This document shows, one piece after another, positions 9,691 through 30,221 of a stretch of 64,000 bases of DNA. A program made the position numbers and the translations under genes. Every line of letters begins with the position of its first letter. The first letter of the stretch is position 1. The notes under the pieces are model-generated. The model had not been told where the DNA came from, did no database searches, and saw nothing but the letters and a program-made list of their open reading frames with translations. The stretch is from Candidatus Aenigmarchaeota archaeon LH_S6 (GTDB lineage Archaea > Aenigmatarchaeota > Aenigmatarchaeia > QMZS01). The DNA lies in contig JAGXOK010000001.1 in assembly GCA_023659935.1 (NCBI GenBank), positions 9,569 to 73,568 on the forward strand, written 5' to 3'.

Positions 9691-9888
9691 CTACAATAAC
9701 ATTGTTCTAAAGGAATGAAAAATTGAGTTATATGCAGATATTTCTGTAATTTCATATTCTTCTATTTTGTAAGTTTTATTTGCTGTATTCAAAAATCTTT
9801 CTGCAATTTTAATGGATTTCTGGATTCTTTCATTTGCTTTATAATCTTTTCTTATCAAACCTTTTTCCAAGCACTCTTTAAAGTTCAT
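9691..9888 (-). pseudogene. HEPN-domain protein, apparently truncated or frameshifted
   Basis: The 65-aa ORF ends ...SAYNSIFHSFRTMLL, which matches the HEPN helix AYYAMFHAARALLL. The expected C-terminal Rx4-6H part is missing or out of frame. It overlaps the upstream MNT gene by 4 nt. Confidence 0.4.
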
Positions 9889-10430
9889 AATTCCACTCCT
9901 TTGATAAGAATATAATTTTTTAAAACACTATTTGAAAAAGAGTCATTTTTTTTCTTCATAGTTTCCCATTTATAATAAGGAATAACTGTGAGTTGAATTT
10001 CCTTATTGCTCTTATTTTTTATACTTATCAATTTTTTATTGTTTATATCTTTGTTTTCACCAATTACCAGAATATCAATATCACTTTTTTCATCAAAATT
10101 TCCAGAAGCATAACTTCCATATATTGCAAGAGAATCCTCGTTTTTAACAATTTCTTCTATTCCTAGTTCCTTTAAATATGTTAAATAGTAAGCCTTTTTG
10201 TATTCTCTTGAAATATAATTTTCATTGTCTAGTCTGAATAGTTTTAAATTGGCTTGTTTCTTTTCTTTTAAAATATTTTCTTTTCTGAGTAAATAACAGT
10301 AAGTTTTTGCACTGCCAACACTTATCCCTAATTCTCTTGACAATTTCCTTATATGAATCTCTCTTGATGGATTCTTTAAAAAGAATTCCAGGACCATGAA
10401 TCCAACAAATTTCCTGAATTCTGATAGCAT
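9885..10430 (-). CDS. minimal nucleotidyltransferase (MNT) with N-terminal wHTH, partner of the HEPN fragment
   Basis: GSYASG...SDIDILVI Pol-beta NTase motif. N-terminal HTH-like region. Confidence 0.6.
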   Translation of the reverse strand: MLSEFRKFVGFMVLEFFLKNPSREIHIRKLSRELGISVGSAKTYCYLLRKENILKEKKQANLKLFRLDNENYISREYKKAYYLTYLKELGIEEIVKNEDSLAIYGSYASGNFDEKSDIDILVIGENKDINNKKLISIKNKSNKEIQLTVIPYYKWETMKKKNDSFSNSVLKNYILIKGVEL

Positions 10431-11882: not shown

Positions 11883-12574
11883 GAATTATGGAAGAATACA
11901 AAAAAGAATTTATTGATTTTTTCTTAGAAAAAGAAGCTCTGAAAATAGGCAAATCTGAGTTGAAAAATGGAAGGGTTTCTCCATATCCTGTGGATATAGG
12001 AATGTTTGATGATGGAGAGAGTATTAGGAAGTTAGGATATTCTTATGCAAGTAAAATAGCAGATAGTTTTAAACCAGAAGAATATGATATCATATTTGGA
12101 CCTGCATATAAAGGAATTCCTTTATCAGTAGCAACTACTATCGCTTTAAGTAGTGATTTTGGTATAAACAAGGGCTATTCTTTTAACAGGAAAGAGCCAA
12201 AGGGTCATGGTGAGGCCCCCAAGGAAGACAGACAAAAGAACTGGATAGTTGGACATAAAATTGAAGATAGGGATAGAATTCTGATGATAGATGATGTTTT
12301 CACAACTGGGGGTACGAAATATGAGTCTGTTGATTTATTGAATAGAGTCGCGGATAATCTCCATTATGTAGGATTAATTATAGCAGTTGACAGAAAAGAA
12401 ATTGGAGAAGATGGGAAAAGTGCAATTAAGCAATTTGAGCAGAAAACAGGAATACCTGTTGAGTCAATTGTAAATATAACTGAAACAAAAAATTATTTGT
12501 CAGATAAAGGAAAAATTTCTGAAGGAGATTTAAAAATAATTGATGATTATTTAGGAAAATATGGAAGAGATTAA
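11873..12574 (+). CDS. pyrE: orotate phosphoribosyltransferase
   Basis: FGPAYKGIPLSVA and the PRPP-binding loop ILMIDDVFTTGGT. Confidence 0.7.
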   Translation: MVVGIMEEYKKEFIDFFLEKEALKIGKSELKNGRVSPYPVDIGMFDDGESIRKLGYSYASKIADSFKPEEYDIIFGPAYKGIPLSVATTIALSSDFGINKGYSFNRKEPKGHGEAPKEDRQKNWIVGHKIEDRDRILMIDDVFTTGGTKYESVDLLNRVADNLHYVGLIIAVDRKEIGEDGKSAIKQFEQKTGIPVESIVNITETKNYLSDKGKISEGDLKIIDDYLGKYGRD

Positions 12575-12753
12575 GAGAAATTTATAAAATCAAAAAAAAC
12601 CCTTAAAAATACAATAATTAGCAAATCAACAAAAATACTTATCAAAGCAGCACTTAAATCCCCACTCACTAAATCGCTGCTACAGCAATTGTTTAAAATA
12701 GGAATCAATAAAAACAAAAATCAGTATGGCTTTTTGTGGATTAAAAAATTATC

Positions 12754-13082
12754 CGCCGAGAGCAGGATTCGATTGCATAAGCCTTTCTGGTTAATTCCTC
12801 TATTGCAACCTTACAAACAGGAAATTGGTTAATAGGGGGTAGGTAAAGGTAAAAGCGGAAAAATGAAATTGGTTTTGGCTTGAATCTTTCGCTTAAATTT
12901 TTTCCCAAAAAAGGCTTTACCTGCGTTTCCTTACGGAAAACTAGTCTCAAGCCAGCCGCGTTAGGTCGCAAATAGCACCATCTGGGGTGCAGTTCTTGTT
13001 TTTTCAGAGAAAAAACAGATGTTCTATCTTTGATAGAACAACCTTTTTTAAAGGATTGCTTAGACCACTCCGCCATCTCGGC
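12754..13082 (-). tRNA. tRNA-Ser (anticodon TGA, class II) with two long non-canonical introns: D-loop (12961-13059) and T-loop (12773-12918)
   Basis: Minus strand: gccgaga-tg-gcg-gagtggtctaa[99-nt intron]cgc-g-gctgg-cttgaga-ctagt-tttccgtaaggaaa-c-gcagg-t[146-nt intron]tcgaat-cctgc-tctcggc-g. All stems pair and the spliced product is 84 nt. The six-frame ORF 12741-13076 coincides with this locus and is rejected. Confidence 0.55.
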
Positions 13083-13349: not shown

Positions 13350-14543
13350 TTACTCTAATTTCTTTTTTAGATAAATTCTCTCAATTCTTTCCATTTTTTT
13401 GAATTTATCCAGTTTTTTAATTACTTCTTGGGGCAATGTTTCAAAAACTCTTGACAATTTAAAAGTATCTAATCTAGATAATTCGTTCCACAGGTTATTT
13501 TCTCTTATTATTTTTTCAACTTGTTCTCTTTTTTCATCATTCTTCCTAGGAAAAGTTGCAACATCTTTCACCCAGATTCTTGAGATACAACCAGAGCCAT
13601 TAACAGAAGTCACTCCTTCTCTTTTACTATATTTTATAAGAGCCTCTTTTACCTGCTCAATTTCAGAATCAATTTTATTAAGAAATCTTTCCCTCTCATT
13701 TTTAAGTTTTACATATTTATTCACCAAATTCACTCCTGGTTCCCCAAGGAATTTGTTTGATTCAAGAGATTCTGTTTTTACCAAGTGTTTCTGTTCTGGG
13801 CATATATCCCTAAACTCGCACCAGTTGCAAAGATTTGAAACTTTTTGCTTAAATTCTTTTTCTTTTTCTATTCTTTTTATTAATTCTATTGTGTCTGATT
13901 TTAATTTTTCAAGTTCTCTCTCTGTTTTTTCTATAGTAACCTCCTTGTCTGCGGACAGAAAATGCCAAACTAATTTTACTCTTTTTGCATCCTGATAATT
14001 TTTAAGAACTGCAATTGCATAAAGAGCAAGCTGCCTGTCCCTATGCAAATATTCTTCTCGAGGAAGTTCAAAACTTGTTTTGTAATCATGAATTTCATAT
14101 TCTCCTTTTCCTGTTGACATAAGTCTGTCAATGAATCCCTGTAATTTGTATTTTCCTTCCAGGTCAAGGGAAATAATTACTTTTTTCTCAAGACCTATTA
14201 TTTTCCCTTTATCAAATGGATAATATCTATTATAATAATCCTTAAGATATTGCTCGCCCATTTTCTTGAAGTTCTCCTTGGTATATTCTTTTTTTACAAT
14301 CAGGATTGAATCATTCCAGTTTTTATTCCACAACCTGTTGTAAAATTGTAGTATTTCTTTAAGAGAATTTTCTTTCTTAAATTTAATATCTTTGTACACT
14401 TTTTTAAGAGTCATATGAACCATATTTCCCATAAATGCCTCCACACCCTGCTGAATCTTTGGCTCTAATCTATCTATATATTTGAATTTAAATTTCAGTG
14501 GACACTGCTCAAAACAGGAGAGCCTTGAATGTGAATAAATCAT
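13350..14543 (-). CDS. PD-(D/E)XK nuclease, Cas4/AddB-like with Fe-S cysteine cluster and K/E-rich C-terminal extension
   Basis: N-terminal YSHSRLSCFEQCPLKFKFKYI. The pattern D...EIHDYKTS. QLALYAI (the QxxxY motif). C-terminal CNWCEFRDICP. Confidence 0.6.
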   Translation of the reverse strand: MIYSHSRLSCFEQCPLKFKFKYIDRLEPKIQQGVEAFMGNMVHMTLKKVYKDIKFKKENSLKEILQFYNRLWNKNWNDSILIVKKEYTKENFKKMGEQYLKDYYNRYYPFDKGKIIGLEKKVIISLDLEGKYKLQGFIDRLMSTGKGEYEIHDYKTSFELPREEYLHRDRQLALYAIAVLKNYQDAKRVKLVWHFLSADKEVTIEKTERELEKLKSDTIELIKRIEKEKEFKQKVSNLCNWCEFRDICPEQKHLVKTESLESNKFLGEPGVNLVNKYVKLKNERERFLNKIDSEIEQVKEALIKYSKREGVTSVNGSGCISRIWVKDVATFPRKNDEKREQVEKIIRENNLWNELSRLDTFKLSRVFETLPQEVIKKLDKFKKMERIERIYLKKKLE

Positions 14544-14622
14544 AATTAATACTAAAAATTTCTATTGGAGAATGAAGTGTAATTGATAATACCCTTATTT
14601 TTAAAGGTTGACAAAAGTTGAA

Positions 14623-15210
14623 CTATTTTAGAAATTTATCTTTAAATTTTGATATATTGAATTTTAATTTTCGATAAAAAAACAAAAATTCCTGGGTTTC
14701 CTTTTTTATGTAATCAAGAATTTTTTTGTATTCTCTATCCTTATACCATGCAGGAATTATTGCTCCTGAATGTTCCTTTCCTGTAAATTTATCCAGGCTA
14801 CAACCTTTAAAATTAAAACCATTCATTGCCAGACATATTGGTTTGAGATCAATTACAGGCAAATTATGATAAATAAACCAATTATTATAATTAATTCCAT
14901 AGATTTCTGCCCTATGCTTGAATATACCCAAATCAAAACAAACATTAAAACCAACAGGAATAAATTTCCATTTGTTTTCTGGGCATAGAATTTTTGAGAA
15001 TTTTTCTATAATCTCTTTTTCAGAGGACTCCCATTCCTTTAAGATTTTTAAATCTCCGACAGGCCCTCCATACTTGCCGATTTCCTGGTATTGAATTGTT
15101 ATAATCTTACTTTTTTCTGGGTCAAATGGAACCCTCTCCTTCCTTCTTAATTTTTCCACAATTTCTGGATCAGTATATCCTATCTCTATATCAAGATAAT
15201 ATTCAGACAT
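14623..15210 (-). CDS. RNase H-like (DEDD-type, YprB/COG3359-like) exonuclease
   Basis: YLDIEIGY (Exo I, DxE) and FNVCFDLGIF (Exo II). Overlaps the upstream paralog by 8 nt. Confidence 0.4.
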   Translation of the reverse strand: MSEYYLDIEIGYTDPEIVEKLRRKERVPFDPEKSKIITIQYQEIGKYGGPVGDLKILKEWESSEKEIIEKFSKILCPENKWKFIPVGFNVCFDLGIFKHRAEIYGINYNNWFIYHNLPVIDLKPICLAMNGFNFKGCSLDKFTGKEHSGAIIPAWYKDREYKKILDYIKKETQEFLFFYRKLKFNISKFKDKFLK

Positions 15211-15697
15211 ATTCTTTCAAGATAATTGAGTATAGTTTTTCAGAGGCCTGCAAATTTTTTATAACAGCTTCTTCCATTTTCTGATAGTCTTTATTTTTAT
15301 AAAAATCCAAAATTTTTTCTTCAGGAACAGCCATAATATTATACCTCTGACAATAATACTTAAAACTTTTTATTTCTTTTTTTAAAAAAATCAAAACTGC
15401 AAACAAATCCAAAATATTAGAACGGTTTAATTTTAGATAAAATTCATCAAATTTTTCCAGAGAAGAAAGTTTTAATAATAAAAGAGGAAAGTCAAATTTC
15501 AGTATATTATACCCAACAAATATTTTGTCATTTTCTTTTAAAAACCAGTCTCTAAAATTTTTAAGGAGATTTTCTTCACTACTAAATTTCCAACTCTTCC
15601 AGATTCTTATATTACTCAGGCCTCTCTTCTTGACCTGAATAGTTAATATTTTTGCGGAATAGGATATTCCCTCAGTTTGAATATTTAGAAAGAGCAT
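15203..15697 (-). CDS. RNase H-like exonuclease paralog with substituted catalytic residues (NxQ instead of DxE)
   Basis: LFLNIQTEG (Exo I degenerate) and YNILKFDFPLL (Exo II). Tandem with 14623-15210. Confidence 0.35.
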   Translation of the reverse strand: MLFLNIQTEGISYSAKILTIQVKKRGLSNIRIWKSWKFSSEENLLKNFRDWFLKENDKIFVGYNILKFDFPLLLLKLSSLEKFDEFYLKLNRSNILDLFAVLIFLKKEIKSFKYYCQRYNIMAVPEEKILDFYKNKDYQKMEEAVIKNLQASEKLYSIILKEYV

Positions 15698-15751
15698 AAA
15701 AGACTTAAATAATTTATAGATATGAAACTTAATTTATTAAAAGATATAATT

Positions 15752-16687
15752 ATGTTTGAACTTTGGACGGAGAAATACAGGCCAAAAAAACTGGATGATA
15801 TAGTTGGTCAGGAGGATACAACAAAAAGATTAAAGGCATTTATTTCAAAAGGCTCAATTCCAAACCTGCTATTCGCTGGGATACAAGGAAGTGGTAAAAC
15901 AAGTACTGCTTTAGCTTTGGTTAATGAAATTTTTGGGAATACGGAGAATTTTATTGAGTTAAATGCCTCTGATGAGAGGGGAATAGACACAGTCAGGATA
16001 AAAATAAAAGATTTTGCAAGAACAAGGCCAATTGGAGAAGGAAGTTTTAAGATTATTTTGCTTGATGAGGCTGAGGCTCTTACAAAGGATGCCCAGCAGG
16101 CTTTAAGGAGAACGATGGAAAATTATTCTGAAACCTGCAGGTTTATTCTAGATTGTAATTATTCTTCAAAACTAATTGAGCCTATCCAATCAAGGTGTGT
16201 GGTTTTTAGGTTTAAACCCCTTAAAAAAGACTATATCAAAAAATATTTGGAAAAAATAGAGAAAGGAGAGGAACTTAAAATAGAAGAAGATGCTATAGAA
16301 GCAATTTTTAAGGAGTGTGGGGGTGACTTGAGAAGAGCAACAAATATTTTACAGGCTTGTGCTTCAATGAACAAAGAAATATCAGAGAATAGTGTTCTTG
16401 AAGTTGTTGGAAAGGCTAAAGGCAGGGACATTGAAGAACTGCTAAAACTTGCAATAGCAGGCAAATTCTTAGAGTCAAGAAAGAAACTTTACAATTTGAT
16501 GATTGAACAGGGAATAAGTCCTGATGATTTACTGAAACAGATTCATTCCCGGATTTTTGAATTAGAGATAGATGATAATGAAAAACTTAGAATTATAAAA
16601 TTACTTGCAGATTACGAATTCAGGGTTGTTGAGGGCTCAAATCCTTTAATTCAGGTAGAAGCATTTCTGGCAAGTTTGAGTAAATAA
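15752..16687 (+). CDS. rfcS: replication factor C small subunit
   Basis: WTEKYRPKKLDDIVGQ. Walker A GIQGSGKTS. LLDEAEALT. The SRC motif region QSRCVVFRF. The ORF track starts 30 nt earlier at 15722. Confidence 0.8.
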   Translation: MFELWTEKYRPKKLDDIVGQEDTTKRLKAFISKGSIPNLLFAGIQGSGKTSTALALVNEIFGNTENFIELNASDERGIDTVRIKIKDFARTRPIGEGSFKIILLDEAEALTKDAQQALRRTMENYSETCRFILDCNYSSKLIEPIQSRCVVFRFKPLKKDYIKKYLEKIEKGEELKIEEDAIEAIFKECGGDLRRATNILQACASMNKEISENSVLEVVGKAKGRDIEELLKLAIAGKFLESRKKLYNLMIEQGISPDDLLKQIHSRIFELEIDDNEKLRIIKLLADYEFRVVEGSNPLIQVEAFLASLSK

Positions 16688-16800: not shown

Positions 16801-19533
16801 ATGGTAAACAAACTATATGTATTTTTAGGTCTGGTAGTTTTAGTCTTTGGATTATCTTTAGCAGTTGCCCAGGAAAATATTGGTGAAGAGAGTAATATTA
16901 TACCAAATGCTACATCTAGAGAGGGCCTCCCTAGTGAAGAAGGTAATGTTACTTTGGAGGGAGCGGCATTTCCAGTTCCCCATTCTCTTAAGGACGATAT
17001 CTCCCAATATAGACGAAGCATGCCTGAGCTTCCTGTTAATGCGTTTCTTTTGGTTGCGAAAGATAATCTTTCCTTGGTCTTCACTCATGAAAAAGTGAGT
17101 AAAGGTCTTGCCACTGTTGAGGGTAAAAAACTTTCTTACAATCTACCCTGGAAAAATACTGAATTGTCAGTGATAAAAGCAGATACTGTATCGGTTAGAA
17201 AAGAGGGCGATCCAGCTACAATCAATGATATACTGTCAAACCCAGATGCATATAGGCTGGAACTTGTTAAACTAGACACCACACTAAGACAAGTCTCCAC
17301 CCTTTATGACCCTGATGATGGTTCTGGGATTGAATTTCCCATAACAACTGGCGTAGTCGTTAACTCCCCACGGAATCCTGTAGATTTCGTTGATGATATG
17401 TCCAGAAAGGTTAGAGAATTTCATGATAATCCTTCCAGAAGTGTTGCTGACAGGCTTCTTGGAGATACTCCAAGGCAACATCTATATACTTTTAATTTCC
17501 AGGAAGATTTCTGGATTGATTCTAAAGCAGAGGTCAATGGTATAGTCTTATATCCCCAAGGTACAGTTGTTGATTTGATCGAGAACCTAGAGACAAGCGA
17601 ACTCGAACTCGTTCATACAGATAAAAATGTACTGCTTTACGTTGTAAAAACTGATATGAAGGCTACACATGTTACGTCTGTAAATGAGATAACCACTCAT
17701 TCAAAGAAATACATGGGAAAAGTTGTCAAATTTACCGCCTTTGGTAAAGGTGGAACCACCAGCATCCAAGAGATGATCAAGAAATCTGGGAAATATCCTC
17801 CAGTAGATGTTCTTCTACATGGAGTTGTTGCATGGAACAGTATTAGTGTACCACCAGAGAGAAATGATATCATTTTAACTACTGGTGCCTCATCTCATCA
17901 CCAGGACAGGGTCTTTGCGCCTGTTGAGGGTAAATTTAACTACATTGGAAAAATCGTTTCGTCCAAGCAGGTCAACGAATCATTGCCAGAAGGATTAGCT
18001 CTAATTACTTATGCTAGGAATAAAACAGGTGAATTGGATTATGAAAAGTTACCAGAGTCCGCTAAAGAGATGATCAAAAGGGAGTACTCCAACCTAAATG
18101 CATCTCTAGGGGGTGCTGCTCCAATCGAAATATCTACCCCTAAAGAGACGGCTCCAACCCCCACTGCAACACCTACTGCAACTCCGACACCTACACTACA
18201 ATCTCATTATCCAGGGAAATGTACTCAATTAGAAGACTTGATAGAAAAGAAAAAACATTATGAACGTTTATATAACTTATCTGAGGAAGAACTTGAGGAG
18301 AAGGGATATAGTAAAGGAAGAGAAGGTATTAAAAAAGTACTGGAAAAACTTGAAGAAAGAATTAGAAATATTAAACCAGAGTGTGAAAATTATACAAATT
18401 ATACAGCTTATACAAATAGATGTGCTGAATTAGAAGACTTGATAGTAAAGAAAAAACATTATAAACATTTATATAGCTTATCTGAGGAAGAACTTAAAAA
18501 GACGGGATATCCTCAAGGAAGAGAAGAGGTTAAAAAAATACTAGAAAAACTTGAAGAAAGAATTAGAGAATGTGAAGAAGTTAGATCTCGGGTAATTCAG
18601 GGAAACATATCTAGAATTAATGGTACGCCAAAGTATACAAATAGATGTACTCAATTAAAAGACTTGATAGTAAAGAAAAAACATTATAAACATTTATATA
18701 ACTTATCAGATAGAGAACTTAAGAAGAGAGGAGATAAAGGAAGAGAAGAGGTTAAAGAAATACTAGAAAAACTTGAAGAAAGAATTAGAGAATGTGAAGA
18801 AATTACAGCCAGATCTGGTGGTAGAAAAGGTCAAGGTGTTAATGTTTCTCAAGAGAGATACCCTGTAGTAAAACCTAGTAATGTAAGTATAACAAAACCT
18901 ATAGTAGCAGAATCCGGAAGGGAGATAACAGATTATTACACATCTAAAATCACCACCATAATGAAAAAAGAAACAAATGTAGAACAACAGGTAAAAGAAC
19001 TAAAAGAATTGAGAAATGAAGTTGATAAATTAATAGAAGAATTGATAAAAAGTAAAGATGAAATAAATACTGAAGAAGTGGATGAGTTGGTTTCAAAAGT
19101 AAAAATAAAACCCGGTAAAATAAAAGCTGATAATGCTATTGTAAATTCTACTAATAAAACAATAATAACAAAAGTCAATAAAAAGAATCTAACAATAAAA
19201 CCAACAAAATTGCATGTTACTATCCAAGAGGGAAAATATGAAATAAAAGCTCCTGAAATAAAGGTACAAAACAAGACATTAGTAGTTGGAAACTCTACTG
19301 TTAAACTTACAGCAAGTGATATTGTAGAAAAAACCAAGGTTGAGCCAAAAGATATTGAACTGAAAGAGGAAAATGCAAAAGCAGTCTATAAGATTAAAGC
19401 AGATGAAAACAGAAAATTGTTTGGATTTATTCCAGTAAAAGTTGAGAAAGATATGACTGTAGATGCTGGGGATAGAGAAGTAAAAGTTCTTAAAGAAAAG
19501 AGGCCTTGGTGGAGTTTTTTAACATCCAAATAG
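16801..19533 (+). CDS. secreted 910-aa protein with PT-rich linker, three tandem ~70-aa Cys-containing repeats and K-rich C-terminal region
   Basis: Signal peptide. PTPTATPTATPTPT linker. Three repeats beginning C(T/A)(Q/E)L(E/K)DLI(E/V)KKKHY at about nt 18221, 18421 and 18643. Coiled-coil and Lys-rich tail. Confidence 0.5.
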   Translation: MVNKLYVFLGLVVLVFGLSLAVAQENIGEESNIIPNATSREGLPSEEGNVTLEGAAFPVPHSLKDDISQYRRSMPELPVNAFLLVAKDNLSLVFTHEKVSKGLATVEGKKLSYNLPWKNTELSVIKADTVSVRKEGDPATINDILSNPDAYRLELVKLDTTLRQVSTLYDPDDGSGIEFPITTGVVVNSPRNPVDFVDDMSRKVREFHDNPSRSVADRLLGDTPRQHLYTFNFQEDFWIDSKAEVNGIVLYPQGTVVDLIENLETSELELVHTDKNVLLYVVKTDMKATHVTSVNEITTHSKKYMGKVVKFTAFGKGGTTSIQEMIKKSGKYPPVDVLLHGVVAWNSISVPPERNDIILTTGASSHHQDRVFAPVEGKFNYIGKIVSSKQVNESLPEGLALITYARNKTGELDYEKLPESAKEMIKREYSNLNASLGGAAPIEISTPKETAPTPTATPTATPTPTLQSHYPGKCTQLEDLIEKKKHYERLYNLSEEELEEKGYSKGREGIKKVLEKLEERIRNIKPECENYTNYTAYTNRCAELEDLIVKKKHYKHLYSLSEEELKKTGYPQGREEVKKILEKLEERIRECEEVRSRVIQGNISRINGTPKYTNRCTQLKDLIVKKKHYKHLYNLSDRELKKRGDKGREEVKEILEKLEERIRECEEITARSGGRKGQGVNVSQERYPVVKPSNVSITKPIVAESGREITDYYTSKITTIMKKETNVEQQVKELKELRNEVDKLIEELIKSKDEINTEEVDELVSKVKIKPGKIKADNAIVNSTNKTIITKVNKKNLTIKPTKLHVTIQEGKYEIKAPEIKVQNKTLVVGNSTVKLTASDIVEKTKVEPKDIELKEENAKAVYKIKADENRKLFGFIPVKVEKDMTVDAGDREVKVLKEKRPWWSFLTSK

Positions 19534-25265: not shown

Positions 25266-26117
25266 GTATTTTAATCCTTATTTTACTGGATCTATTTCTA
25301 AAACTGCCATATCTCCTACTACATCATCAGAACTCTCCGTTGCGTTTCAATCCTTATTTTCATGGACCTATCTCTAAAACAGAAAATTTAGAAAATCTGG
25401 CTGAAGAGTATGGTATGTTTCAATCCTTATTTTCATGGACCTATCTCTAAAACTTTCTTTTAGGTCTATGTTTCCCCCCATTCCAGCATGTTTCAATCCT
25501 TATTTTACTGGACCTATCTCTAAAACATTAGATACAAGGGAGAGAAAGCTTGAAGAATCTAAAGTTTCAATCCTTATTTTACTGGACCTATCTCTAAAAC
25601 AGGAATGCGCTCCAGAATCTATCATTACTTTTCCTTGTTTCAATCCTTATTTTACTGGACCTATTTCTAAAACACAAAGGACTTAGAGGGAACATAAAAT
25701 ACAAAACCCTGTTTCAATCCTTATTTTCGTGGATCTATTTCTAAAACTAACTCTGGAGGACGGGTTCAACGCAACTTCTGATGGTTTCAATCCTTATTTT
25801 ACTGGATCTATCTCTAAAACGAGACAGGGAAAAACCAACAACCAACACCATATCACGTTTCAATCCTTATTTTACTGGATCTATCTCTAAAACGCAACCC
25901 TTTTCAAGGTAATTGTTGAAAAAGGTCTGCACCTCAAAAACTAAAATAACAGAGTTATCACCCTGTTTTGGCTTTAGCCTTTTTAATTTACAATACCCAT
26001 AAAAGGCTCATTCAATCCTTATTTTACTGGACCTATCTCTAAAACTGTATTTTCAAGAAGGAAAAACCTTATCTCTTCTCGTTTCAATCCTTATTTTACT
26101 GGACCTATCTCTAAAAC
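25266..26117 (-). CRISPR. CRISPR array of 11 repeats; 37-nt repeat GTTTCAATCCTTATTTTACTGGACCTATCTCTAAAAC on the + strand; 35-39-nt spacers
   Basis: Repeats at 25266 (degenerate), 25344, 25417, 25490, 25564, 25637, 25711, 25784, 25857, 26010 (5'-truncated) and 26081. The reverse complement starts GTTTTAGAG and ends ATTGAAAC (a typical 8-nt 5' handle), so it is probably transcribed from the minus strand. That places the leader at 26118-26677 beside cas6 and makes the degenerate 25266 repeat the terminal one. Confidence 0.85.
25894..26009. repeat. 116-nt X element inside the CRISPR array between repeats 9 and 10 (second copy at 23627-23743)
   Basis: Too long to be a spacer. It holds two hairpins (ccttttcaa..ttgaaaagg and agccttttta..taaaaggct). 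The adjacent repeat is 5'-truncated. Confidence 0.7.
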
Positions 26118-26550: not shown

Positions 26551-26664
26551 TTTGGGTGTTGGCCTTTTGATAGATTTAACCAATAAAGGCTGACTCTTTT
26601 TTTATTGACCAATTTTGTAGTTTGGGTGTTGGCCTTTTGATAGATTTAACCAATAAAGGCTGAC
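26551..26664. repeat. tandem duplicated 44-bp hairpin unit (period 70 bp) in the CRISPR leader / cas6 3' region, carrying a TTAACCAA loop motif
   Basis: TTTGGGTGTTGGCCTTTTGATAGATTTAACCAATAAAGGCTGAC occurs at 26551-26594 and 26621-26664. Confidence 0.8.
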
Positions 26665-26677
26665 AAGGGTTGCATAT

Positions 26678-27328
26678 TTAAACTGATTTAACTGTTCCAA
26701 AACCCTGTGAAACTCCTTTACCCAATCCAATAAATTCAGGTAATTTAAAATTGATTTTAAAATCACCAGTAAAACCAATCATAGGTACTTCTTTATATAC
26801 AACCGAGACAGGTTTAACTTTTGTCTTGACTTTTAATTCAGACAAAACAACATATTCAAATGCTTTTGCAACAGAAAGAATATTTCCAATCAGGACCTTG
26901 TGCAATAGCAATGTCTGTTCTTTTTTATTTAAACTATTATACTCTTTATAATTCTTCTCATTCAAAGCTATCCATGGTATGACAAACCTATATTTTCTCT
27001 CTTTTTCACTAAAACAAAAGTTCTGATATTTTTCTATTGTCTTTTTTTCTACAATTTTGTAACTGCTTGTTCCCAATTTAAGGTTGTCAAACTCATTCGA
27101 AATATTTTTTAAAGCAGTTGCACCCTCATTAATACCTAAAATAACTGGAGTGCCTTCTATTACTTTGTATTGTACTAGTGGATAAGTATATAGATAATTT
27201 TTCTCCAGATGATGATGTAAGATTGGTTCATCTCTAAATTTATTCCCAACAAAACCGCGGAGAAATGTTCCGGATTCTTTAACAGGTTTATTTGTTTTCA
27301 GAATTAAAGTATAAATTAAAAGTTCCAT
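26678..27328 (-). CDS. cas6: CRISPR-associated endoribonuclease Cas6
   Basis: Adjacent to the array on the inferred leader side. C-terminal glycine-rich loop GLGKGVSQGFGTV. RRM-like size of 216 aa. Confidence 0.65.
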   Translation of the reverse strand: MELLIYTLILKTNKPVKESGTFLRGFVGNKFRDEPILHHHLEKNYLYTYPLVQYKVIEGTPVILGINEGATALKNISNEFDNLKLGTSSYKIVEKKTIEKYQNFCFSEKERKYRFVIPWIALNEKNYKEYNSLNKKEQTLLLHKVLIGNILSVAKAFEYVVLSELKVKTKVKPVSVVYKEVPMIGFTGDFKINFKLPEFIGLGKGVSQGFGTVKSV

Positions 27329-30085: not shown

Positions 30086-30221
30086 AGCCACGGGAGGGAC
30101 TTGAACCCCCAACCTGCGGTTTACAAAACCGCTGCTCCACCAGTTACCCCAACCTTTTATTTTCCTATCGACGCTTTTTGATGGACTTAACCAATAAAAG
30201 GGTTGATTGAGCCACCGTGGC
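30086..30221 (-). tRNA. tRNA-Thr (anticodon TGT) with a ~63-nt D-loop intron (about 30144-30206)
   Basis: Minus strand: gccacgg-tg-gctc-aa[intron]ctggtg-gagc-a-gcggt-tttgtaa-accgc-aggtt-ggggg-ttcaagt-ccctc-ccgtggc-t. The acceptor stem pairs perfectly and the discriminator is U, as is common for Thr. The intron contains the TTAACCAATAAAAGG motif on the opposite strand. Confidence 0.6.

What the first reader, a model, noticed from the sequence alone, without database searches (positions are those of the whole stretch)
13350..15697. Three-gene nuclease cluster: two RNase-H-like (DEDD/YprB-like) paralogs plus a Cas4-like Fe-S PD-(D/E)XK nuclease
Three co-oriented, overlapping genes on the minus strand. 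The first (15203-15697) is a DEDD-like protein whose Exo I residues are substituted (NIQTEG), so it is likely inactive. The second (14623-15210) is an intact paralog (YLDIEIG, FDLGIF). After an 80-bp gap comes a 397-aa RecB/Cas4-family nuclease (CPLKFKFKYI ... QLALY ... CNWCEFRDICP) with a 130-aa K/E-rich C-terminal extension. An active/inactive exonuclease pair coupled to a Cas4-like enzyme is not a described module. It could be a DNA-end processing or defence system, especially with the CRISPR array being cas-poor.
Basis: partly seen in the sequence, partly recalled or inferred. Interest (0 to 1): 0.65.

Follow-up and report, generated by a model that had tools for sequence, protein, structure and literature searches.

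The report
Exonuclease gene pair beside unrelated nuclease
The three genes are real, but only the first two belong together: an intact DNA-polymerase-type 3'-5' exonuclease and its catalytically dead paralog, conserved in a group of small archaea. The Cas4-like nuclease next door is an independent, widespread gene that sits there by chance.

Summary
All three minus-strand ORFs and every quoted motif are confirmed. ORF1 (15203-15697) and ORF2 (14623-15210) are paralogs (hhalign 97%, E 1e-10) related to the family-B polymerase 3'-5' exonuclease domain. The ORF2 model (pLDDT 93) has a DEDD/DnaQ fold and keeps all catalytic residues. ORF1 has lost Exo I and Exo III in all 18 members examined, yet it is under purifying selection (dN/dS 0.10-0.19).

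The ORF1-ORF2 pair, usually with overlapping stop and start codons, recurs in 18 distinct loci. These form one clade of the ORF2 family (Aenigmatarchaeota, Altiarchaeota, Woesearchaeota, Undinarchaeota). The rest of this pan-archaeal family is solo.

The three-gene module is not supported. None of 83 other ORF2-family loci has an ORF3-like gene nearby. None of 80 ORF3-family loci has an ORF1- or ORF2-like gene. In a relative with about 94% nucleotide identity, synteny breaks inside the 79-bp ORF2-ORF3 spacer.

ORF3 is a full-length member of a very large (more than 3,800 hits) archaeal family of about 400-aa pfam12705-type Cas4-like Fe-S nucleases. Its "extension" is a conserved C-terminal domain. 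There is no evidence of a defence or CRISPR link.

Most likely reading: a heteromeric exonuclease with a pseudo-enzyme partner, next to an unrelated solo repair-type nuclease. Interest is modest.

The parts
15203..15697 (-). ORF1, 164 aa: catalytically inactivated paralog of ORF2 (PolB-exonuclease-like pseudo-enzyme). The Exo I D-x-E reads N5-x-Q7. The Exo II motif GYNILKFDFP is retained. Exo III Y/E is lost.
   Evidence: PF03104 DNA_pol_B_exo1 at E 1e-6, above the gathering score. Best PDB sequence hits are the Pol delta Exo II region, E 7e-6. hhalign to the ORF2 family gives 97% probability over 149 columns. Exo I is never intact in 18 members. dN/dS is 0.10-0.19. The family is rare: 24 representatives at E<=1e-10 among 1.84 billion.
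14623..15210 (-). ORF2, 195 aa: predicted active stand-alone DEDDy-type 3'-5' exonuclease of the PolB-exo-like / PF13482-PF10108 borderland. Invariant residues are D7, E9 (Exo I), N89, F92, D93 (Exo II), D121, and Y167, E171 (Exo III as YxxxE). A clade-specific insertion of about 16 aa lies within residues 10-34.
   Evidence: 327 homologs across Archaea. Invariant residues. AF2 model pLDDT 93, pTM 0.88. Foldseek matches to Pol III epsilon, ExoI and PolB exo domains at probability 1.0. The insertion and the paired state map to one clade.
15203..15210 (-). 8-nt overlap (ATGTCTGA) between the ORF1 stop and the ORF2 start, implying translational coupling.
   Evidence: Sequence. Small overlaps or gaps of 43 bp or less occur in 16 of 18 paired loci.
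14544..14622 (-). 79-bp ORF2-ORF3 spacer: a synteny breakpoint between two independent gene blocks. It contains an A/T-rich TATA-like element (TTTAAAAATAA) about 50 nt upstream of the ORF3 ATG.
   Evidence: blastn: L178 (93-96% nt identity) matches the window only from 14603 downwards; L012 (80% nt identity) matches only down to 14627. Sequence. The promoter assignment is inference only.
13788..14543 (-). ORF3 N-terminal domain (aa 1-252): RecB/AddB/Cas4-superfamily PD-(D/E)XK nuclease with a 4-Cys Fe-S cluster site (C14, C239, C242, C248). Catalytic residues are D139, E150, D153, K155, Q171 and Y175.
   Evidence: PF12705 at E 3e-36 over the full profile, with only weak Cas4 hits. Invariant columns in A5. 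AdnAB/UvrD-nuclease domains are the only weak PDB sequence hits. phrog_69 and phrog_1218 'exonuclease' at 1e-28.
13350..13787 (-). ORF3 C-terminal domain (aa 253-397, plus the stop codon): a family-wide conserved domain of unknown fold, not a low-complexity tail.
   Evidence: Hits cover 99% of the query. Invariant H253, G270, L273, N275, G316, P332, L363. No Pfam or PDB match.
15722..16687 (+). Replication factor C small subunit, transcribed divergently with its start only 24 bp from the ORF1 start. This linkage is shared only with the closest relatives. It is context, not part of the pair.
   Evidence: Pfam Rep_fac_C/AAA. The same arrangement occurs in L012-L016 and L175/L176.

Best explanation
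The region holds two unrelated functional units that happen to be adjacent in this lineage.

Unit 1 is a two-gene operon, ORF1-ORF2. ORF2 is a stand-alone DEDDy-type 3'-5' exonuclease derived from, or sister to, the family-B DNA polymerase proofreading domain. It should remove nucleotides from free 3' ends by two-metal catalysis using D7/E9/D93/E171, with Y167 positioning the water. ORF1 arose by duplication of an ORF2-type gene in the ancestor of one archaeal clade. It lost the Exo I and Exo III catalytic residues but has been kept under purifying selection and translationally coupled to ORF2. The most likely arrangement is a fixed-stoichiometry complex in which ORF1 is a non-catalytic pseudo-exonuclease subunit that contributes substrate binding, stabilisation or recruitment. 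The clade-specific insertion in ORF2 is a candidate contact surface.

Unit 2 is ORF3, an independently transcribed member of a very large archaeal family of about 400-aa pfam12705-type (AddB/RecB/Cas4-like) Fe-S nucleases. It probably processes DNA ends in repair or recombination.

Shown: gene reality, paralogy, fold, motif states, selection, conservation of the pair, and non-conservation of the triple. Inferred: physical ORF1-ORF2 complex, substrate, and cellular pathway.
For: - Paralogy: hhalign 97%, E 1e-10, 149 columns.
- PolB-exo affinity: PF03104 and PF10108 hits; PDB sequence hits to Pol delta and Deep Vent exo regions.
- Fold of ORF2: AF2 pLDDT 93. Foldseek finds DnaQ epsilon, ExoI, and PolB/Pol epsilon exo domains at probability 1.0, and viral exonucleases.
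- Catalytic residues are invariant in 88 ORF2-family sequences and in all paired ORF2s.
- In ORF1, the Exo I D..E pair is never complete and the Exo III Y/E is lost in 17-18 members. Even so, dN/dS is 0.10-0.19.
- Pair conservation: 18 of 84 distinct ORF2 loci have ORF1 directly upstream on the same strand, mostly with -4/-8/-20/-25 bp overlaps and in different genomic contexts. ORF1 is the only recurrent neighbour.
- Paired ORF2s form a single NJ clade that carries a specific insertion.
- Independence of ORF3: 0/83 and 0/80 reciprocal co-occurrence. The breakpoint lies in the spacer in L178 and L012. L177 has an unrelated upstream ORF. ORF3 stays linked to Pelota, while ORF1-ORF2 stay linked to RFC-S in close relatives.
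Against: - No direct evidence that ORF1 and ORF2 interact. No multimer prediction could be run, and the ORF1 monomer model is poor (pLDDT 56).
- Three members nested in the paired clade (L018, L029, L031) have no adjacent ORF1, so the partner is dispensable or encoded elsewhere in them. In L023 and L024 the two genes are 0.6 and 2.1 kb apart.
- ORF2 itself scores below Pfam gathering thresholds (21.2 vs 24). The last acidic residue is Glu, not the canonical Asp.
- The substrate (DNA or RNA) is unknown. No family member has been characterised in the sources searched.
- L175, the nearest strain (97% nt identity), shares the spacer down to 33 bp before ORF3, where its contig ends. The ORF2-ORF3 adjacency may therefore be stable within the species, and read-through co-transcription here cannot be excluded.
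Confidence: 0.7

Rival explanations
1. One reading: ORF1, ORF2 and ORF3 form one three-component DNA-end-processing or anti-phage defence module, possibly compensating for a cas-poor CRISPR locus.
For: The three genes are co-oriented and closely spaced in this window. Fusions of a PF13482 exonuclease with a Cas4-like DUF83 nuclease exist in COG2251 and DUF2779 (PMC3985635), so the enzymatic combination is biologically plausible. ORF3 hits PADLOC Cas4 models at 5e-14. L175 shares the spacer up to 33 bp from ORF3.
Against: Reciprocal co-occurrence is 0/83 and 0/80. Synteny breaks inside the spacer in a ~94%-identical relative and at the ORF2 stop in an 80%-identical one. ORF1 and ORF2 have no PADLOC hits. 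The flanks are housekeeping genes. ORF3 is below the TIGR00372 Cas4 cut-off (44.7 vs 65). The CRISPR array is 10 kb away. pfam12705-type Cas4-like proteins are not CRISPR-linked (PMC5704561).
Confidence: 0.04
2. ORF1 is not a stable subunit of ORF2. It is an independently acting non-catalytic protein: either a regulator or inhibitor that occupies substrates or titrates ORF2, or a nucleic-acid or replisome-binding factor that merely shares an operon.
For: ORF1 evolves about 1.5-2 times faster than ORF2. The partner is absent next to three nested paired-clade genes and is separated from ORF2 in L023 and L024. Most of the ORF2 family works without any such partner (66 solo loci). ORF1 retains the very PolB-like Exo II segment, which could serve another interaction.
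Against: Tight stop/start overlaps in most pairs suggest coupled, stoichiometric synthesis. The origin of ORF1 coincides with a clade-specific insertion in ORF2. ORF1 was never found without ORF2 in the loci examined.
Confidence: 0.2
3. ORF1 is still an enzyme. It would use a rearranged active site (retained N64, D69, D97 plus other residues) for a different hydrolytic reaction, making the pair two active nucleases with distinct specificities.
For: The Exo II N/F/D and the D97 equivalent are (nearly) invariant in ORF1. Some members have a single acidic residue in the Exo I region, for example E in L001, L002, L005 and L033, or D in L026.
Against: No position in the Exo I or Exo III regions carries a conserved acidic or tyrosine residue across the family: the most common residues are S, Q, A and K at frequencies of 0.35-0.53. 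DEDD catalysis needs four carboxylates for two metals (established knowledge of the DnaQ-like superfamily).
Confidence: 0.05

Closest known systems
[quoted passage not shown]
   Same: The order and spelling of the Exo I / SSE-linker / Exo II motifs match. Examples are GYNILKFDxP in ORF1 against GYNxxxFDxPYL in Pol delta, and SSEKEII in ORF2 against SSEREMI in Deep Vent Pol. ORF2 has the DEDDy-type fold.
   Different: These are stand-alone proteins of 160-200 aa with no polymerase domain. ORF2 ends Exo III with Glu (YxxxE) and falls below the PF10108 gathering score. ORF1 is catalytically dead.
PF13482 RNase_H_2 / YprB-like predicted exonucleases (RNase H-like superfamily clusters F.10, F.13, F.23 of Majorek et al. 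2014, PMC3985635)
   Same: 10 of 22 ORF2-family members match PF13482. All are uncharacterised predicted 3'-5' exonucleases adjacent to the PolB-exo cluster.
   Different: This archaeal ~183-aa family has no TPR, helicase or DUF83 fusion. The window protein itself matches PF10108, not PF13482. The dedicated inactive paralog partner is not described there.
Active/inactive paralog arrangements in replication and RNA-decay machines. Examples: Pol epsilon (active N-terminal plus inactivated C-terminal PolB-exo module, PMC2669801), archaeal PolB2 (PMC2527604), and the exosome Rrp41/Rrp42 pair (own knowledge).
   Same: The logic is the same: a duplicated catalytic module in which one copy loses its catalytic residues but is retained as a structural partner.
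   Different: Here the two modules are separate small proteins consisting of the exonuclease domain only. Complex formation is inferred, not shown.
Homodimeric DEDD exonucleases with composite sites (RNase T, oligoribonuclease, TREX1/2; own knowledge)
   Same: Same fold class. They offer a precedent for a partner subunit supplying substrate-binding residues to the neighbour's active site, which would rationalise a dead partner.
   Different: Those are DEDDh enzymes and homodimers. No sequence-level relationship beyond the superfamily was found (RNase T, REXO2 and Cas2-DEDDh appear only as low-ranking Foldseek hits).
pfam12705-type Cas4-like / AddB-RecB nuclease domain proteins; solo-Cas4 (Hudaiberdiev et al. 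2017, PMC5704561)
   Same: ORF3 has the RecB motifs, QxxxY, and the 1+3 Cys Fe-S cluster site. It is stand-alone with non-conserved neighbours.
   Different: ORF3 carries a conserved ~145-aa C-terminal domain with no detectable relatives. It is not fused to UvrD or COG1205 helicases. It is below the Cas4 equivalog cut-off and is not next to cas genes.
COG2251 / DUF2779 proteins that fuse an RNase-H-like exonuclease with a DUF83 (Cas4-like) nuclease (PMC3985635)
   Same: The same two enzymatic superfamilies are combined.
   Different: There they form a single polypeptide and a conserved architecture. Here they are separate genes whose adjacency is not conserved.

Membership tests
DEDD (DnaQ-like) 3'-5' exonuclease superfamily, PolB-exo-like branch: ORF2 | Exo I motif D-x-E | tested here: met
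   D7 and E9 are invariant in 88 family sequences.
DEDD (DnaQ-like) 3'-5' exonuclease superfamily, PolB-exo-like branch: ORF2 | Exo II motif N-x2-3-(F/Y)-D | tested here: met
   N89, F92 and D93. Position 93 is D in the paired clade and E in solo members.
DEDD (DnaQ-like) 3'-5' exonuclease superfamily, PolB-exo-like branch: ORF2 | Exo III motif Y-x3-D (DEDDy) | tested here: inconclusive
   Y167-x3-E171 is invariant, but with Glu in place of the canonical Asp. It is chemically equivalent, but the geometry was not inspected.
DEDD (DnaQ-like) 3'-5' exonuclease superfamily, PolB-exo-like branch: ORF2 | RNase-H-like alpha/beta fold of DnaQ-type exonucleases | tested here: met
   AF2 pLDDT 93. Foldseek probability 1.0 to Pol III epsilon, ExoI and PolB exo domains, with TM 0.5-0.58 normalised to the query.
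DEDD (DnaQ-like) 3'-5' exonuclease superfamily, PolB-exo-like branch: ORF2 | Score above the Pfam gathering threshold for PF10108 or PF13482 | tested here: not met
   PF10108 21.2 bits against a cut-off of 24. Among 22 family members, 10 match PF13482 and 9 match PF10108 at E<0.01.
DEDD (DnaQ-like) 3'-5' exonuclease superfamily, PolB-exo-like branch: ORF2 | Metal-dependent 3'-5' exonuclease activity | not testable with these tools
   Requires biochemistry.
Active DEDD exonuclease: ORF1 | Exo I D-x-E and Exo III Y-x3-D/E catalytic residues | tested here: not met
   ORF1 has N5-x-Q7. No member has both D and E. The Y and E equivalents are A/V and K/N/L.
PolB exonuclease domain homolog (PF03104): ORF1 | Significant profile match including Exo II | tested here: met
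   PF03104 28.8 bits against a cut-off of 23. The Pol delta Exo II region matches at E 7e-6. The fold itself is not confirmed (model pLDDT 56), but hhalign to the ORF2 family gives 97%.
Cas4 (CRISPR-associated; TIGR00372 / PF01930): ORF3 | RecB-type nuclease motifs and a 4-Cys Fe-S cluster site | tested here: met
   D139, E150, D153, K155, Q171, Y175, C14, C239, C242 and C248 are invariant.
Cas4 (CRISPR-associated; TIGR00372 / PF01930): ORF3 | Score above the Cas4 equivalog cut-off, with Cas4 as the best-matching family | tested here: not met
   TIGR00372 44.7 against 65. PF12705 scores 126 bits against 24.8 bits for PF01930.
Cas4 (CRISPR-associated; TIGR00372 / PF01930): ORF3 | Encoded in a cas operon or next to cas1/cas2 or a CRISPR array | tested here: not met
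   The nearest array (25268-26117) with Cas6b is about 10.7 kb away, behind housekeeping genes. There is no recurrent neighbour in 80 family loci; cas1 and cas2 were not searched for explicitly.
Multi-gene defence system (PADLOC-type) | Component proteins match defence-system models, and the gene set is conserved as a module | tested here: not met
   ORF1 and ORF2 have no PADLOC hits. ORF3 gives only generic Cas4, DruK or Aga-Cas4-like nuclease-domain hits. The triple is not conserved.
COG2251 / DUF2779 exonuclease-Cas4-like fusion proteins | RNase-H-like exonuclease and DUF83 nuclease in one polypeptide, or a conserved operon | tested here: not met
   They are separate genes here, and the adjacency is unique to this lineage. 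The family is described in PMC3985635.

The most novel reading that the evidence does not exclude
The ORF1-ORF2 pair is an obligate heterodimeric 3'-5' exonuclease specific to a group of DPANN-type archaea. The pseudo-exonuclease subunit would have taken over substrate binding or docking to the replisome (PCNA, RFC or a polymerase without a proofreader). That would make it an archaeal trans-acting proofreader or 3'-end editor, analogous to bacterial Pol III epsilon with its accessory subunit. The much larger solo family would then be a so-far unrecognised pan-archaeal DNA 3'-end processing enzyme.
Probability: 0.15. Interest if true: 0.55.

Novelty: new variant of a known kind. Interest (0 to 1): 0.3.

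Why it matters
If the pair is a heteromer, it would be a compact, experimentally tractable example of pseudo-enzyme evolution. One exonuclease domain would have been duplicated, one copy killed, and both kept and co-translated. This happened in organisms with very reduced genomes, where retaining a dead enzyme implies a real function.

It also draws attention to an uncharacterised family of stand-alone PolB-exonuclease-like proteins found across DPANN, Asgard, Thermoplasmata, Thaumarchaeota, Bathyarchaeota and methanogens. Its role in archaeal DNA or RNA metabolism is unknown.

The negative result matters for annotation. Adjacency of nuclease genes in one genome is not evidence of a defence module, and this Cas4-like gene should not be linked to the nearby CRISPR array.

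Tried and rejected
1. Split gene or pseudogene of one PolB-exo protein. Rejected: ORF1 and ORF2 match the same N-terminal half of the exo profiles, align to each other end to end, and both are under purifying selection.
2. Defence-system membership. PADLOC gives nothing for ORF1 or ORF2.
3. Viral or mobile origin. PHROGs gives only weak polymerase hits for ORF1, none for ORF2, and generic exonuclease families for ORF3. BFVD gives only generic exonuclease folds. The flanks are housekeeping genes.
4. Other conserved partners of ORF2 or ORF3. Neighbour clustering found none beyond ORF1: at most 6/84 and 6/80 loci share any family. RFC-S adjacency occurs in only 4 loci.
5. A hidden, divergent ORF1 next to the nested solo genes L018, L029 and L031. 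tblastn gave only cross-hits to ORF2 itself, and the 133-aa ORF upstream in L018 is unrelated.
6. ORF1 structure. The AF2 model is too poor (pLDDT 56), so no fold search was made with it.
8. The bacterial-type promoter/terminator scan was uninformative, with hit counts equal to shuffles.
9. Literature searches for a characterised member or a described pair found nothing.
10. Subfunctionalisation signature. There are only weak hints: ORF1 keeps the solo-type Gly in the NxGxFKG loop where paired ORF2 has Phe.
11. The P0066 (Methanocaldococcus) neighbourhood look-up found no record.
Full report
OBSERVATION. ORF1 is 15203-15697 (164 aa), ORF2 is 14623-15210 (195 aa) and ORF3 is 13350-14543 (397 aa). 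ORF1 and ORF2 overlap by 8 nt (ATGTCTGA). ORF2 and ORF3 are separated by 79 bp. All quoted peptide strings are present. The window is AT-rich (about 31% GC) and archaeal. The flanking genes are GatD-like, Pelota, PyrE, the RFC small subunit and ribosomal proteins. Exact-sequence look-up places the window on an unnamed 93-kb NCBI MAG contig. The closest named relatives are Aenigmatarchaeota.

WHAT THE PROTEINS ARE. ORF1 matches the family-B polymerase exonuclease domain: PF03104 at E 1e-6, above the gathering score. Its family profile hits the Exo II region of Pol delta at E 7e-6. [quoted passage not shown] Of 22 family members, 10 match PF13482 and 9 match PF10108. The ORF2 profile aligns with Exo I-Exo II of Deep Vent polymerase. 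The two families are homologous over their full lengths (hhalign 97%, E 1e-10, 149 columns). An AlphaFold2 model of ORF2 built from 88 sequences is confident (pLDDT 93, pTM 0.88). Foldseek matches it to Pol III epsilon, exonuclease I, and PolB and Pol epsilon exonuclease domains at probability 1.0, and to viral exonucleases. The ORF1 model, from only 6 sequences, was poor (pLDDT 56) and was not used.

ACTIVE VERSUS INACTIVE. In the ORF2 family, D7, E9, N89, F92, D/E93, D121, Y167 and E171 are invariant or nearly so. This is a DEDDy-type site whose last carboxylate is Glu. In ORF1 the Exo I pair reads N-x-Q. Across 17-18 family members the first position is N/K/R/S/G/T/A/D/E and the third is Q/E/A/F/L/Y, and the two are never D and E together. 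The Exo III Tyr and Glu equivalents are also lost. The very PolB-like Exo II segment (G-x-N-x-L-K-F-D-x-P-L-L-L-L-K) and the D97 equivalent are kept. ORF1 is not decaying: dN/dS is 0.10-0.19, against 0.055-0.115 for ORF2 in the same genome pairs.

DISTRIBUTION AND SYNTENY OF THE PAIR. ORF2 belongs to a large family of proteins of about 183 aa, found in DPANN lineages, Asgard archaea, Thermoplasmata, Thaumarchaeota, Bathyarchaeota and methanogens. None carries a functional name in any source. ORF1's family is small: 6 word-indexed hits, and 24 representatives at E<=1e-10 among 1.84 billion. I scanned all fetched loci with HMMs of the three families. Of 84 distinct ORF2-family loci, 18 have an ORF1-like gene upstream on the same strand. 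In 16 of those it is adjacent, typically overlapping by 4-25 nt. In L023 and L024 it lies 0.6 and 2.1 kb away. The 18 loci sit in different genomic contexts. The other 66 loci are solo, and 6 of those have too little upstream sequence to judge. ORF1 is the only recurrent neighbour of ORF2. In an NJ tree the paired ORF2 genes form one clade. An Undinarchaeota member is basal, and three apparently partner-less members are nested inside. That clade carries an insertion of about 16 aa just after Exo I. The simplest history is one duplication of an ORF2-type gene, inactivation of the upstream copy, and retention of both as a translationally coupled operon.

THE THREE-GENE MODULE FAILS ITS OWN TEST. 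None of the 83 other distinct ORF2-family loci contains an ORF3 relative within the fetched flanks of up to 6 kb. In the reciprocal test, none of 80 ORF3-family loci (578 kb) contains an ORF1 or ORF2 relative. Close relatives give the sharpest evidence:
- L178 (93-96% nucleotide identity, ORF3 95% identical) aligns with the window only from 14603 downwards, that is, from inside the spacer. It has an unrelated 300-aa gene upstream.
- L012 (80% nt identity) aligns only down to 14627, at the ORF2 stop codon, and continues with unrelated genes.
- L177 (ORF3 69% identical) has an unrelated 64-aa ORF upstream.
- L175 (97% nt identity) shares the spacer to 33 bp before ORF3, where its contig ends. 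The same arrangement in the nearest strain therefore cannot be excluded.

ORF3 keeps its convergent linkage with Pelota, and ORF1-ORF2 keep their divergent linkage with RFC-S. The window simply joins two blocks. The spacer contains a TATA-like A/T-rich element about 50 nt upstream of ORF3. This is consistent with ORF3 having its own promoter, but that is inference only.

ORF3. It matches PF12705 end to end (E 3e-36). Its matches to Cas4 are only weak: PF01930 at 24.8 bits, and TIGR00372 at 44.7 against a cut-off of 65. It is a full-length member of a very large archaeal family, with more than 3,800 hits covering 99% of the query. Invariant residues are the RecB-type set (D139, E150, D153, K155, Q171, Y175) and four cysteines (C14, C239, C242, C248). 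Residues 253-397 are a conserved domain (invariant H253, G270, N275, G316, P332) with no Pfam or PDB match. It is not a low-complexity extension. The family has no conserved neighbours. Hudaiberdiev et al. (PMC5704561) report that Cas4-like proteins closest to pfam12705 are not CRISPR-associated. The window's CRISPR array has about 12 repeats of 37 nt (25268-26117) and an adjacent Cas6b (26678-27328). It lies about 10.7 kb away, behind housekeeping genes.

MECHANISM.
Shown:
- ORF2 has the fold and the full catalytic residue set of a two-metal 3'-5' exonuclease.
- ORF1 is a conserved, selected, catalytically disabled paralog, co-encoded and usually translationally coupled with ORF2.

Inferred:
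- The two proteins form a complex in which ORF1 acts as a pseudo-enzyme subunit for substrate binding, stabilisation or recruitment.
- The ORF2 insertion may be the contact surface.
- The substrate is probably a DNA 3' end, given the PolB-proofreader ancestry, but RNA is not excluded.
- ORF3 probably resects or trims DNA ends in repair or recombination, by analogy with AddB/RecB/Cas4 nuclease domains.

Rivals:
- ORF1 acts as an independent regulator or inhibitor (0.2).
- ORF1 has a re-wired active site (0.05).
- The three-gene module (0.04).

COMPARISON WITH KNOWN SYSTEMS. The pair works like other active/inactive paralog assemblies, such as the two PolB modules of Pol epsilon, archaeal PolB2 and the exosome Rrp41/42 pair. 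It may also resemble dimeric DEDD enzymes such as RNase T, where the partner subunit supplies substrate contacts. It is not a member of any of these families. Majorek et al. (PMC3985635) list PF10108/COG3298 and PF13482 as uncharacterised predicted exonucleases next to the PolB-exo cluster. They also describe exonuclease-DUF83 (Cas4-like) fusions in COG2251 and DUF2779. I found no description of the ORF1-type pseudo-exonuclease or of the pair.

VERDICT.
- Observation: confirmed.
- Interpretation: partly supported. The paralog pair and the inactive/active split are supported. The module, defence and CRISPR links are not.
- Novelty: a new variant of a known kind, namely a stand-alone PolB-type exonuclease with a dedicated dead paralog partner. 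The Cas4-like gene is an ordinary member of a known class.
- Interest: 0.3.

Noticed in passing
window 25268-26117 and 26678-27328; also 26551-26594 / 26621-26664: A CRISPR array of about 12 repeats of 37 nt (Rfam CRISPR-DR7) has Cas6b as the only cas gene found among the nine flanking ORFs scanned, and ribosomal protein genes lie immediately beyond. A perfect 44-nt direct repeat sits between the array and cas6b.
   Followed up: partly
window 13353-13787 (ORF3 aa 253-397): The C-terminal domain of the Cas4-like nuclease is conserved across the aligned members of a family with more than 3,800 hits (invariant H253, G270, N275, G316, P332). It has no Pfam or PDB sequence match and may be an undescribed domain.
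   Followed up: partly
window 16801-19533: A 910-aa ORF with an N-terminal hydrophobic segment contains three internal repeats of about 60 aa (…LEDLI.KKKHY..LY.LSEEEL…). The gene at the corresponding position in the 97%-identical relative L175 is only 442 aa, and blastn shows repeat-unit copy-number differences.
   Followed up: no
L023 4919-6600; L024 3363-6588: In two related Aenigmatarchaeota loci, the ORF1-like and ORF2-like genes are separated by 587 bp and 2137 bp instead of overlapping. L024 also carries an ORF downstream whose sequence looked like a tyrosine recombinase by eye (not tested). The content of the insertions was not examined.
   Followed up: no
L018 2536-3138; L029 6001-6609; L031 6001-6591: Three ORF2 genes nested in the paired clade still carry the clade-specific insertion but have no adjacent ORF1 and no detectable remnant. 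The partner is either lost or encoded elsewhere. L031 comes from the complete genome CP058998.1, which could settle this.
   Followed up: partly
window ~11911-12910 vs L178 2583-2670: The block that covers most of PyrE, between ORF3 and Pelota in the window, is absent from the ~94%-identical relative L178. This neighbourhood is therefore rearranged on both sides of ORF3 among close relatives.
   Followed up: no
window 15698-15721: The start codons of ORF1 and of the divergently transcribed RFC small subunit are only 24 bp apart. The two promoters must therefore overlap each other or the neighbouring coding sequences. The same arrangement occurs in L012-L016 and L175/L176.
   Followed up: no
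window 30086-30153 (minus strand): A tRNA is called by the Rfam covariance model (32 bits) but not by ARAGORN. It may be an atypical or intron-containing archaeal tRNA.
   Followed up: no
window 9691-10430 (minus strand): A 181-aa nucleotidyltransferase-domain protein (PF01909/PF18765, with an N-terminal HTH) overlaps by 4 nt with a downstream 65-aa ORF. The layout resembles a minimal nucleotidyltransferase/HEPN-type toxin-antitoxin pair. The small ORF was not tested.
   Followed up: no
P0273: A 474-aa protein made of nine identical tandem copies of a ~52-aa unit plus a short tail matched the ORF1 profile in eight stretches. It is most likely an assembly or gene-calling artefact rather than a relative.
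   Followed up: partly
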